The notes under the pieces: model-generated
The model's input: only the letters and a program-made list of their open reading frames with translations
The model's database searches: none
What the model was told of the DNA's origin: nothing
Shown: positions 15,904 to 17,241 of the stretch, one piece after another
How positions within the stretch are numbered: position 1 is the stretch's first letter
How the letters are laid out: every line of letters starts with the position of its first letter
Position numbers and translations under genes: made by a program
Assembly (NCBI RefSeq): GCF_009914755.1
Contig: NC_060943.1
Direction: 5' to 3' (one strand)
From: the human T2T-CHM13v2.0 reference genome, Homo sapiens
Length of the DNA: 64,000 bases

Positions 15904-17241
15904 GATCTTCTCAAAGAATTGATCCCTTCTCAAGGCCCTAGGCTTCAGGGGTTCCAGGCTCACCATCTGCAAAAGCTTGCTCCCCGAAGCTCTGTCCCTC
16001 AGTGAACCCAGCCAGGCTCTGCCCCTGACCCACAGGATCTGCTCCCAGGGGGGTCCTGGGGGCTCCTGGCTCTGCCCCCTCCTGCACCTCACTTATTGCC
16101 ATCCCCAGAGGGTATCAGACCCCCTTCCTTGCCTGAGTCTTTGAATGCTCCCAAGAGCTTTGAGTCTCAAGCTGGGCTTGAGACCCTGAGTTTGAAGGCT
16201 TGAAGCCTGGAACCCCGGTGTGGACGGGGTTTAAGGGCCCCTGTGGCTTGCAGCTCCTAGTGGTGGAGACTCTTAGGCAAGGAAGGGATCGGTACTCTCT
16301 TTTATATAGTTTTATGTATTTATTTATTATTGAGATAGGGTCTCACTCTATCGTCCAGGCTGGAGTGCAGTGCAGTGCAGTGGTGCCATCTCAACTCACT
16401 GCAGCCTCCACTTACCAGGCTCAAGTGATCCTCCTACCTCATCCTCCCGAGTAGCTGGGACTACTGGCTCATGCCACCATACCCGGCTAATTTTTGGATT
16501 TTTTTTTTTTTTTTTTTTTTTTTGAGACAGAGTCTTGCTCTGTCGCCCAGGCTAGAGTGCAGTGGTGTGATCTTGGCTCACTGCAACCTCCACCTCCTGG
16601 GTTCAAACGATTCTCCTGCCTCAGCCTCCCGAGTCGCTGGGATTACAGGCGCCCACCACCGCACCCAGCTAATTTTTGTATTTTTTAGTAGAGATGGGGT
16701 TTCACCATCTTGGCCAGGCTGGTCTCGAACTCCTGACCTCATGATCCACCCGCCTCGGCCTCCCAAAGTGCTGGGATTACAGGCATGAGCCACCGCGCCC
16801 GGCCTAATTTTTGGATTTTTAATAGAGATGGGGTCCTATGTTGTACTATGTTGCTCAGGCTCACCTCAAACTCCTGGACTCAAGCGATCCACCTCGGCCT
16901 TCCAAAGTGCTGGGATTACAGGCCCGCGCCAGGGCACCTAGCCGGAACTGGGAACTCTCTAAGGAGAAAGTCTGCAATTCTGGGTGGTGGGAGGCTGCTC
17001 TTGGGAGCATTCAAAGACTCAGGCAAGGAAGGGGGTCTGATACCCTCTGGGGGCGGCGATAAGTGGGGTGCAGGAGGGGGCAGAGCCAGGAGCACCCTGG
17101 GAGCAGAGTTTGTGGATCAGGGGCAGAGCCTGGCTGGGTTCACTGAGGGACAGAGCTTCGGGGAGCAAGCTTTTGCAGATGGTGAGCCTGGAATCCCTGA
17201 AGCCCAGGGTCTTGAGAAGAGATCAATTCTTTGAGAAGATC
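15904..17241. repeat. Inverted repeat: arms 15904-16158 and 16997-17241
   Basis: Manual reverse-complement alignment: ~12-13 mismatches plus one 10-bp indel. Confidence 0.95.
16310..16930 (-). mobile_element. Younger Alu (~16500-16803) nested in an older Alu, TSD ctaatttttggatttt
   Basis: Direct repeat at ~16487 and ~16804; host Alu halves on both sides. Confidence 0.88.

What the first reader, a model, noticed from the sequence alone, without database searches (positions are those of the whole stretch)
15904..17241. ~250-bp, ~95%-identical non-Alu inverted repeat immediately upstream of the LTBP4-L promoter
Seen: 15904-16158 is the reverse complement of 16997-17241, with ~12-13 substitutions, one 10-bp indel and long perfect blocks. 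The 838-bp spacer is mostly a nested Alu-in-Alu, so the arms may once have been only ~200 bp apart. The arms do not look like Alu, L1 or MIR to me. Inference: arms this similar around an old, diverged Alu suggest either a recent inverted duplication or ongoing arm-to-arm gene conversion. The structure could invert the spacer, extrude under promoter supercoiling, or fold into a ~245-bp dsRNA stem in intron 1 of the MGDVK transcript or in SHKBP1 read-through RNA. Such a stem would be an ADAR or endo-siRNA substrate ~400 bp from the L promoter. This is the best candidate here for an undescribed regulatory device.
Basis: partly seen in the sequence, partly recalled or inferred. Interest (0 to 1): 0.8.

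Follow-up and report, generated by a model that had tools for sequence, protein, structure and literature searches.

The report
Small inverted duplication in LTBP4 intron
A 250-base stretch upstream of one LTBP4 promoter was copied once, backwards, about a kilobase away; the inverted pair is real and is not a mobile element, but nothing suggests it is more than an ordinary neutral rearrangement that can fold into an RNA hairpin.

Summary
Window 15904-16158 is the reverse complement of 16997-17241: 12-13 substitutions in 245 aligned bases, one 10-nt gap and an 838-nt spacer. About 77% of the spacer is an Alu nested in an older Alu. The arm occurs only at these two places in the whole reference. 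It is not soft-masked and has no Rfam or Pfam match. It has no flanking target-site duplication.

My reading is a single local inverted duplication. The left arm is probably the copy, because its GC skew runs against all the surrounding unique DNA. It was probably made after both Alus were already in place. Each arm has diverged about 0.02-0.025, against 0.04-0.06 for the inner Alu and about 0.14 for the outer one.

Sense RNA is predicted to fold into a stem of about 240 bp. That RNA exists only as intron 1 of NM_003573.2. Cruciform extrusion is unlikely across an 838-nt spacer (passages of PMC7999016).

A second such pair, 99% identical, lies 112 kb away among the 264 kb sampled. No evidence of function was found. 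Primate orthologues, haplotype orientation and RNA editing could not be tested. Interest is low.

The parts
15904..16158 (-). Left arm (255 nt), probably the inverted copy. It holds a 10-nt tandem duplication at 16048-16069.
   Evidence: GC skew is -0.25 against +0.23 to +0.45 in all neighbouring non-Alu DNA from 14700 to 17241. None of 20 local windows and none of 66 intron-1 windows is this negative.
16159..16299 (.). Unique part 1 of the spacer (141 nt), with a 9-bp stem and 3-nt loop at 16164-16184, five bases from the arm junction.
   Evidence: (score 15 against a shuffle maximum of 14) and the fold. GC skew +0.23.
16300..16497 (-). 3' part of the outer, older Alu, on the minus strand.
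   Evidence: Rfam SRP-like match at 16330-16487. Non-CpG own-branch divergence 0.142. Masked row 16298-16838.
16498..16805 (-). Inner, younger Alu inserted into the outer one. It has a 25-nt T run at 16499-16523 and a 17-nt target-site duplication at 16487-16503 and 16804-16820.
   Evidence: Non-CpG own-branch divergence 0.039-0.058.
16806..16943 (-). 5' part of the outer Alu.
   Evidence: Rfam SRP-like match at 16838-16942. Non-CpG own-branch divergence 0.150. A possible 9-of-10 target-site duplication at 16291-16300 and 16951-16960 is read from the printout, which found only the 7-nt exact core at 16294 and 16954.
16944..16996 (.). Unique part 2 of the spacer (53 nt).
   Evidence: GC skew +0.43.
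16997..17241 (+). Right arm (245 nt), probably the original sequence in its native orientation.
   Evidence: GC skew +0.32 matches the surroundings.

Best explanation
This is a single local inverted duplication of unique DNA. About 245 bp of native sequence (the right arm, 16997-17241) was copied once in reverse orientation. The copy was inserted about 1.1 kb upstream, between 15903 and 16159, giving the left arm. The likely cause is a replication template switch or break repair, not transposition. The event most likely happened after both Alus were in the interval. Using recalled neutral rates, that is roughly 12-50 million years ago, with a central value of about 20-25. The two copies have since drifted apart neutrally. 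At the DNA level the pair is expected to be inert. At the RNA level, any transcript that crosses both arms will fold into a duplex of about 240 bp with an 838-nt loop. The only annotated such transcript is the pre-mRNA of NM_003573.2, as its intron 1. This duplex is an expected nuclear ADAR substrate that is discarded with the intron. Shown here: the repeat, its uniqueness, its anatomy, the relative divergences, the skew asymmetry and the predicted fold. Inferred: the mechanism of origin, which arm is the copy, the absolute age, neutrality and editing.
For: Only two places in 3.1 Gb match the arm by BLAST at E<=10. A sequence profile of the arms found 34 matches among 150 scored candidates: the two arms at 264 and 250 bits, and 32 others at 25 bits or less (E>=0.028). 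The three best weak matches are patchy and share only G+C-rich words. The arms are not soft-masked and overlap no annotated element. The arms have no Rfam match. The four open frames of 55-149 aa that cross the arms have no Pfam family. The boundaries are sharp and no target-site duplication flanks the pair. Arm divergence is K2P 0.051, with 11 transitions, 1 transversion and 2 differences in CpG context. That is about 0.02-0.025 per arm, against non-CpG own-branch values of 0.039-0.058 for the inner Alu and 0.142-0.150 for the outer Alu. The left arm's GC skew (-0.25) is opposite to every neighbouring unique piece (+0.23 to +0.45), while the right arm (+0.32) fits. None of 20 local windows falls below +0.28. 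The unique parts of the spacer also keep a positive skew, so the spacer looks native rather than inverted. The minimum-energy and centroid folds pair the arms end to end. The sense duplex has 239 pairs at -521.6 kcal/mol; 7 of the 12 substituted columns remain G-U pairs. A second two-copy inverted pair (270 nt, 99%, spacer 351 nt) lies in an SPTBN4 intron within the same 264 kb, so such duplications recur. Template switching is a published source of inverted repeats and hairpins (PMC5453318, abstract and passages).
Against: No orthologous sequence could be examined, so the age, the direction of copying and the absence of conversion are all inferences. With only 12 substitutions the Poisson error is wide, and the arm age overlaps that of the inner Alu. 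The differences are somewhat clustered. With 14 events, a longest perfect run of at least 77 has P=0.064, and jointly with a second run of at least 56 P=0.0024. With adjacent changes collapsed to 10 events these become 0.23 and 0.032. The statistic was chosen after seeing the data, but patchiness is what partial conversion would leave. By my reading, neither junction shows microhomology, which gives a template switch no positive support. GC skew varies widely across the whole gene (sd 0.27; 119 of 517 windows at or below -0.25), so the polarity argument rests on local context only. The Alu own-branch values include subfamily differences, and the set of copies was chosen by similarity to the inner Alu.
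Confidence: 0.6

Rival explanations
1. The inverted pair is old and predates the Alu insertions. It originally had a spacer of about 190 bp, and arm-to-arm gene conversion or repeated template-switch homogenisation has kept the arms at about 95% identity.
For: The arms (about 5% apart) are far more alike than the divergence of the outer Alu between them would predict, roughly 2 x 0.14. The differences fall in three clusters separated by perfect runs of 77 and 56 nt. Template switching is reported to make imperfect inverted repeats perfect (passages of PMC5453318, and of PMC8755829).
Against: This needs an extra, sustained process where a single later duplication explains the same data. The clustering weakens to P=0.23 and 0.032 once adjacent changes are counted as single events. 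The longest perfect tract is only 77 nt. The two arms carry equal numbers of the G/C allele, 6 and 6 of 12, by my count from the table, so no bias is visible.
Confidence: 0.13
2. The pair is a by-product of a small inversion made by staggered breaks. A segment of about 1.1 kb flipped and the staggered end was filled in on both sides, leaving inverted duplicates at the breakpoints. Alternatively, the spacer has flipped since by recombination between the arms.
For: The geometry fits: two inverted copies exactly bounding a segment, with no target-site duplication. Inverted repeats flank every definite human-chimpanzee microinversion in PMC8755829 (abstract and passages), though those are 17-33 nt long.
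Against: The unique parts of the spacer keep the same positive GC skew as the outside flanks (+0.23 and +0.43). This suggests the spacer is in native orientation. An even number of flips cannot be excluded.
Confidence: 0.15
3. The structure is a selected regulatory device. The hairpin RNA would act as an ADAR or Dicer substrate, or the DNA as a switch, tuning the LTBP-4L promoter about 580 bp downstream.
For: The predicted stem is long and well paired in the sense orientation (239 pairs). It lies near a promoter and within an annotated intron. Non-repetitive predicted dsRNAs are reported as sparse, about 2 per Mb (PMC11838218, section 9).
Against: There is no positive evidence. CpG observed/expected is 0.05-0.16 in the arms. 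The arms carry no RefSeq functional element, no Rfam family and no CTCF-like motif. The hairpin encloses only Alus and no exon. A comparable pair lies in an unrelated intron nearby. Three literature searches on LTBP4 found nothing on the repeat or on editing there. In the only paper opened from those listings, LTBP4 is mentioned for expression only.
Confidence: 0.04
4. The whole 1.3-kb unit is a non-autonomous DNA transposon or foldback element with long terminal inverted repeats, or the arms are two copies of an old dispersed repeat.
For: The architecture, long terminal inverted repeats around a short core, resembles such elements.
Against: There are only two arm copies in the genome, and both are here. 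No target-site duplication flanks the unit. It is not masked and has no transposase-like frame. At 95% identity with identical end points, the arms cannot be two independent insertions of an ancient family.
Confidence: 0.02

Closest known systems
Local inverted duplications and hairpin-forming inverted repeats made by replication template switching (Loytynoja and Goldman 2017, PMC5453318; longer-range FoSTeS/MMBIR events)
   Same: A reverse-complement copy of nearby sequence, with sharp ends and no target-site duplication, creating a hairpin-capable pair. A small perfect hairpin sits five bases from one junction.
   Different: The copied tract (245 nt) and the distance (about 1.1 kb) are much larger than the short-range events that paper models. 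It states that it does not model long-range switches (passage). No junction microhomology was seen.
Non-repetitive intramolecular dsRNAs of the human genome (dsRNAscan catalogue, Andrews and Bass, PMC11838218)
   Same: A predicted long intronic duplex formed by non-repeat sequence. That paper reports 96% of predicted dsRNAs in protein-coding loci as intronic and non-repetitive ones at about 2 per Mb (section 9).
   Different: At about 240 bp it is below the paper's >300 bp class of putative MDA5 substrates (section 10). I could not check whether this locus is in the catalogue. LTBP4 does not occur in the main text, and supplements and the web resource were out of reach.
Inverted Alu pairs (IRAlus), the usual ADAR substrates
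   Same: Size class (about 250-300 nt arms, spacer under 3 kb), intronic position and expected hyper-editing.
   Different: The arms are unique DNA, not Alu, and are much more alike. In 264 kb, 297 of 299 inverted pairs were masked repeats, and 296 of them were below 90% identity.
Second unique inverted pair in an SPTBN4 intron (chr19:43303713-43303982 and 43304334-43304603)
   Same: A two-copy, unmasked local inverted duplication of about 270 nt in an intron.
   Different: It is younger (99.3% identity), has a shorter AT-rich spacer (351 nt) and contains no Alu.
Cruciform-forming or fragile palindromes and arm-converting palindromes such as those of the sex chromosomes
   Same: An inverted arm pair with a spacer.
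   Different: The arms are short and 5% diverged, and the spacer is 838 nt. Recombinogenic palindromes need short or absent spacers (passages of PMC7999016). The sex-chromosome palindromes have kilobase-scale arms with near-identity (recalled, no call).

Membership tests
Dispersed repeat or transposable element (Alu, L1, MIR, DNA transposon with terminal inverted repeats) | Many copies spread across the genome | tested here: not met
   BLAST at E<=10 finds 2 places. The profile search finds 2 strong places plus 32 weak ones at 25 bits or less among 150 scored candidates. The three best weak matches look compositional.
Dispersed repeat or transposable element (Alu, L1, MIR, DNA transposon with terminal inverted repeats) | Target-site duplication flanking the element | tested here: not met
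   The bases before 15904 and after 17241 share no direct repeat (read). By contrast, the inner Alu has a 17-nt one.
Dispersed repeat or transposable element (Alu, L1, MIR, DNA transposon with terminal inverted repeats) | Recognised by repeat masking or a curated repeat library | tested here: inconclusive
   No masked row of at least 100 nt overlaps either arm. Shorter masks are not listed and no repeat library such as Dfam was available. The SPTBN4 pair, which looks MIR-like to my eye, is also unmasked.
Local inverted duplication (template switch or break repair product) | Exactly two nearby copies in opposite orientation with sharp common end points | tested here: met
Local inverted duplication (template switch or break repair product) | One copy absent in an outgroup, and junction microhomology | not testable with these tools
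   No primate genomes were available. By eye no microhomology of 1 nt or more is present at either junction, but 5% divergence may have erased it.
Intramolecular dsRNA / ADAR editing substrate | Long duplex predicted within a single transcript | tested here: met
   The minimum-energy and centroid folds pair the arms. The duplex has 239 pairs. Both arms lie in intron 1 of NM_003573.2.
Intramolecular dsRNA / ADAR editing substrate | A-to-I editing observed on the arms | not testable with these tools
   No reads or editing tables were available. Three searches found no paper reporting it, and the only one opened from those listings does not.
Known miRNA or hairpin RNA gene | Match to a curated RNA family | tested here: not met
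   All 9 Rfam matches at E<=1 lie in the Alus of the spacer, none in an arm, and all are below their gathering scores.
Cruciform-forming or fragile palindrome | Short or absent spacer | tested here: not met
   The spacer is 838 nt. Passages of PMC7999016 give 12 bp against 52 bp as the working range in eukaryotic cells.
Invertible segment bounded by inverted repeats | Both orientations of the spacer seen among haplotypes or species | not testable with these tools
   Only one haplotype, the reference, was available.
Palindrome maintained by arm-to-arm gene conversion | Arms more alike within a species than orthologous arms between species | not testable with these tools
   This needs orthologues. 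The indirect clustering test is equivocal.

The most novel reading that the evidence does not exclude
The pair is older than its Alus and is actively kept alike by arm-to-arm conversion because the hairpin matters. As a long, sense-biased intronic dsRNA (7 of 12 changed columns stay G-U paired in sense RNA against 4 in antisense), it would recruit ADAR or Dicer next to the LTBP-4L promoter. It would thereby couple use of the far-upstream promoter, or SHKBP1 read-through, to L-isoform output.
Probability: 0.04. Interest if true: 0.65.

Novelty: new member of a known kind. Interest (0 to 1): 0.2.

Why it matters
As it stands it matters little. It is one more small lineage-specific rearrangement in an intron. 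[quoted passage not shown] If orthologue comparison showed concerted evolution of the arms, or if the stem were heavily edited or processed in tissues that use the upstream LTBP4 promoter, it would become a tractable model. It could then show how a unique-sequence hairpin near a promoter influences isoform choice.

Tried and rejected
- **Dispersed repeat or transposon.** Rejected on copy number, the lack of a target-site duplication, the lack of masking and the lack of protein-family matches in the arm frames.
- **Larger or older palindrome extending beyond the arms.** Local alignments of flanks and spacer parts against the arms and against each other did not exceed shuffled controls. The exception is a 9-bp hairpin at 16164-16184. 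A 13+6-nt echo of the arm end at about 16270-16299 scored 15 against a shuffle maximum of 16.
- **Other copies within the window.** None was found for the arms.
- **Known RNA family.** None in the arms.
- **CTCF-like motif pair.** None in the arms at up to 1 mismatch. The window holds 2 matches, both elsewhere, against 1.2 expected.
- **Imprint of editing or a strand-specific mutation pattern.** The 11 transitions go in both directions and the G/C allele splits 6 to 6 between the arms (my count). Eleven transitions of 12 is only marginally above a 2:1 expectation, by my own estimate of about 0.07, which was not scripted.
- **Literature.** Searches for LTBP4 with 'inverted repeat' returned 5 papers, seen as a listing only, none on this locus by title or abstract. 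LTBP4 with A-to-I or hyper-edit returned 490 papers holding at least 2 of the 3 terms, and none of the 12 listed contains LTBP4. LTBP4 with RNA editing and ADAR returned 2 papers; in the one checked, LTBP4 is mentioned for expression only.
- **Supplementary tables.** These are closed. Tables of PMC11838218 and of editing atlases could list this locus.
- **Protein searches.** I did not use the large protein searches, because the arm frames have no family match and a hit would not bear on the question.
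Full report
**1. The observation**

The inverted repeat is real. The repeat finder reports two ungapped inverted pieces: 15904-16059 with 17086-17241, and 16055-16158 with 16997-17100, each 94% complementary. A gapped alignment merges them into one arm pair of 255 and 245 nt.
- It has 12 substitutions in 245 aligned columns. 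MAFFT places the gap differently and gives 13, with 232 invariant columns.
- It has a single 10-nt gap. The gap is a 2.2-copy tandem 10-mer at 16048-16069 in the left arm, which is an ordinary slippage event.
- Perfect runs of 77 and 56 nt exist.
- The spacer is 838 nt.

**2. The spacer**

All nine Rfam matches at E<=1 in 15500-17800 lie between 16330 and 16942, and all are below their gathering scores. Five are SRP-like on the minus strand and four are to the Alu-related families mir-1268 and mir-3135. None touches an arm. The inner Alu (16498-16805, with a 25-nt T run) is bracketed by a perfect 17-nt direct repeat at 16487 and 16804. Unique spacer DNA amounts to 141 + 53 nt.

**3. Is the arm a known repeat?**

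No evidence says so.
- A BLAST of the left arm against the whole reference at E<=10 returns two places, the two arms.
- A sequence-only profile of both arms scored 150 of 24,441 first-look candidates and gave 34 matches at E<=10. The two arms scored 264 and 250 bits. The other 32 scored 25 bits or less, with E>=0.028.
- The alignments of the three best weak matches are patchy and hinge on G+C-rich words.
- Neither arm, nor the two weak matches on chr19, overlaps a masked row of at least 100 nt or any functional element.
- A word-size-7 BLAST finds no further arm copy in the window.
- Four open frames of 55-149 aa crossing the arms have no Pfam family at E<=1.
- The bases outside the arms share no direct repeat. 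Flanks and spacer show no symmetry above shuffles, apart from a 9-bp hairpin at 16164-16184, five bases from the left arm's inner end.

One caveat applies. No curated repeat library was available, masks shorter than 100 nt are not listed, and old repeats may go unmasked.

**4. Substitution pattern and age**

Of the 12 substitutions, 11 are transitions and 2 are in CpG context. K2P distance is 0.051. CpG observed/expected in the arms is 0.05 and 0.16, so this is ordinary methylated bulk DNA and not part of the CpG island that begins near 17500.

With recalled neutral rates of 0.5, 1.0-1.2 and 2.2 x 10^-9 per site per year, the arms separated about 51, 21-25 or 12 million years ago. The Poisson error on 12 events is wide.

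For a local relative clock I avoided any consensus. I aligned 207 near-full-length Alu copies from 264 kb as they stand. For each copy I computed its mean distance to the others minus half the mean distance among the others, ignoring CpG sites.

| Element | Non-CpG own-branch divergence |
|---|---|
| Inner Alu | 0.039-0.058 |
| Outer Alu, two pieces | 0.142 and 0.150 |
| Each arm (half of 10 non-CpG differences in about 240 sites) | about 0.02 |

The simplest reading is that the duplication is younger than both Alus and was made across a spacer that already contained them.

Two caveats apply. The Alu values include subfamily differences, and the copies were chosen by similarity to the inner Alu. 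The comparison with the outer Alu is robust. The one with the inner Alu is not.

**5. Which arm is the copy?**

All unique DNA from 14700 to 17241 is G-rich on the + strand, with piecewise GC skew of +0.45, +0.34, +0.23, +0.43 and +0.32. The exception is the left arm at -0.25.
- In 250-nt windows of unmasked DNA outside the arms, 0 of 20 local windows fall below +0.28.
- In intron 1 as a whole, 0 of 66 windows reach -0.25.
- Gene-wide the skew varies much more: 119 of 517 windows are at or below -0.25. The argument is therefore local only.

I infer that the right arm is native and the left arm is the inserted inverted copy. The spacer's unique parts keep the native polarity. That favours a simple copy-and-insert event over an inversion with duplicated breakpoints.

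**6. Conversion?**

The differences form three clusters.

| Events counted | P(longest perfect run >= 77) | P(also second run >= 56) |
|---|---|---|
| 14 | 0.064 | 0.0024 |
| 10 (adjacent changes and the indel counted once each) | 0.23 | 0.032 |

The statistic was chosen after seeing the data. Conversion is therefore neither shown nor excluded, and only orthologues can decide.

**7. What it can do**

*RNA.* The minimum-energy and centroid folds of 15880-17265 pair the arms end to end. As separate strands, the sense arms form 239 pairs at -521.6 kcal/mol and the antisense arms form 236 pairs at -514.1 kcal/mol. Seven of the 12 changed columns remain G-U pairs in sense RNA, against four in antisense RNA.

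The only annotated transcript crossing both arms is NM_003573.2, as its intron 1 (13773-19781). The LTBP-4L transcript NM_001042544.1 starts at 17820, 578 nt beyond the right arm. A RefSeq 'silencer' tile (17488-17782) lies in between. PMC4381339 (passages) confirms that NM_001042544.1 is LTBP-4L and that the L and S isoforms use their own promoters. The hairpin encloses only Alus and no exon, so it gives no obvious handle on splicing or circular-RNA formation.

An intronic duplex of this length is an expected ADAR substrate. In PMC11838218 (sections 9 and 10 read):
- non-repetitive predicted dsRNAs average about 2 per Mb;
- 96% of predicted dsRNAs in protein-coding loci are intronic;
- only 2,018 of 5.13 million predictions are both longer than 300 bp and more than 96% paired.

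This stem is shorter than that class. LTBP4 is not named in the paper's main text, and its supplements and web resource were out of reach.

*DNA.* Passages of the review PMC7999016 report that inverted Alus stalled forks in eukaryotic cells with a 12-bp spacer but not with a 52-bp one. They give the eukaryotic Okazaki initiation zone as 100-200 nt, and report that a 6-kb inverted pair with a 280-bp spacer is stable in wild-type yeast. Extrusion or hairpin formation across 838 nt is therefore unlikely. Recombination between 245-nt arms whose longest perfect tract is 77 nt should be inefficient. That last statement is recalled general knowledge, not a call.

**8. How unusual is it?**

In the window, 84 inverted pairs of at least 100 nt lie within 3 kb of each other. 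Of the 25 longest shown, this pair alone exceeds 85%.

In 264 kb (chr19:43200001-43464000), a self-BLAST gave 299 inverted pairs with arms of at least 150 nt, spacers of at most 3 kb and identity of at least 70%.
- 297 are masked repeats, 296 of them below 90% identity.
- Three pairs reach 90%: one masked pair, this pair, and a second unmasked pair.

The second unmasked pair lies in an SPTBN4 intron at chr19:43303713-43303982 and 43304334-43304603. It has 270-nt arms at 99.3% identity and a 351-nt AT-rich spacer. It too has only two copies in the genome. Unique small inverted duplications thus occur twice in this quarter-megabase.

**9. Comparison with known things, and verdict**

The structure behaves like, and qualifies as, a local inverted duplication of the kind attributed to template switching or break repair (PMC5453318, abstract and passages). 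It is larger and longer-range than the events that paper models, and I saw no junction microhomology. It also fits the catalogued class of non-repetitive intronic dsRNAs.

It fails the tests for a transposable element, a known RNA family and a cruciform-prone palindrome. Tests for editing, inversion polymorphism and concerted evolution could not be run.

No paper describing this repeat turned up. I opened only one paper from those listings, and supplements were closed.

I rate it a new member of a known kind. It is of low interest unless orthologues or RNA data show conversion or processing.

Noticed in passing
L021:3713-4603 (chr19:43303713-43304603, outside the window): A second unique inverted pair lies in an SPTBN4 intron. 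It has 270-nt arms at 99.3% identity and a 351-nt AT-rich spacer, is unmasked, and has only two copies in the genome. Part of the arm looks MIR-like to my eye (recalled, untested).
   Followed up: partly
window 16487-16820: The inner Alu has a perfect 17-nt target-site duplication and an uninterrupted 25-nt T run (16499-16523). Rfam gives sub-threshold matches to the Alu-related miRNA families mir-1268 and mir-3135 inside both Alus.
   Followed up: partly
window 16164-16184: A perfect 9-bp stem with a 3-nt loop lies five bases from the inner end of the left arm. It was the only symmetry in the spacer above shuffled controls. It could have helped a fork stall or switch at the junction (speculation).
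   Followed up: no
window 14650-15900: Over 1.2 kb of unique DNA upstream of the left arm, GC skew on the + strand is unusually strong (+0.3 to +0.59), without CpG-island character (observed/expected about 0.3).
   Followed up: partly
window 15006-15150 and 15629-15649: An exon-like piece absent from the supplied RefSeq rows. It has an ETS-like CCGGAAGT site, then an ATG-initiated open frame of about 22 codons ending at a GT donor-like site near 15145. A 21-nt G-rich motif ending in GGCTAACGC recurs at 15006 and 15629 (81% identical). A start site here would also place the inverted pair in a first intron.
   Followed up: no
window 17455-17477 / 17728-17750 and 17725-17762: A 23-nt G/C-rich inverted pair (87% complementary) and six tandem GGGCGG units lie in the LTBP-4L promoter block (GC 0.72, CpG observed/expected 0.89). 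They overlap the RefSeq 'silencer' tile 17488-17782.
   Followed up: no
window 13757-13772: The first exon of NM_003573.2 is only 16 nt: an ATG and four further codons, then a GTGAGT donor. The transcript's 5' end is evidently truncated in the record, so the true upstream start site is unknown.
   Followed up: no
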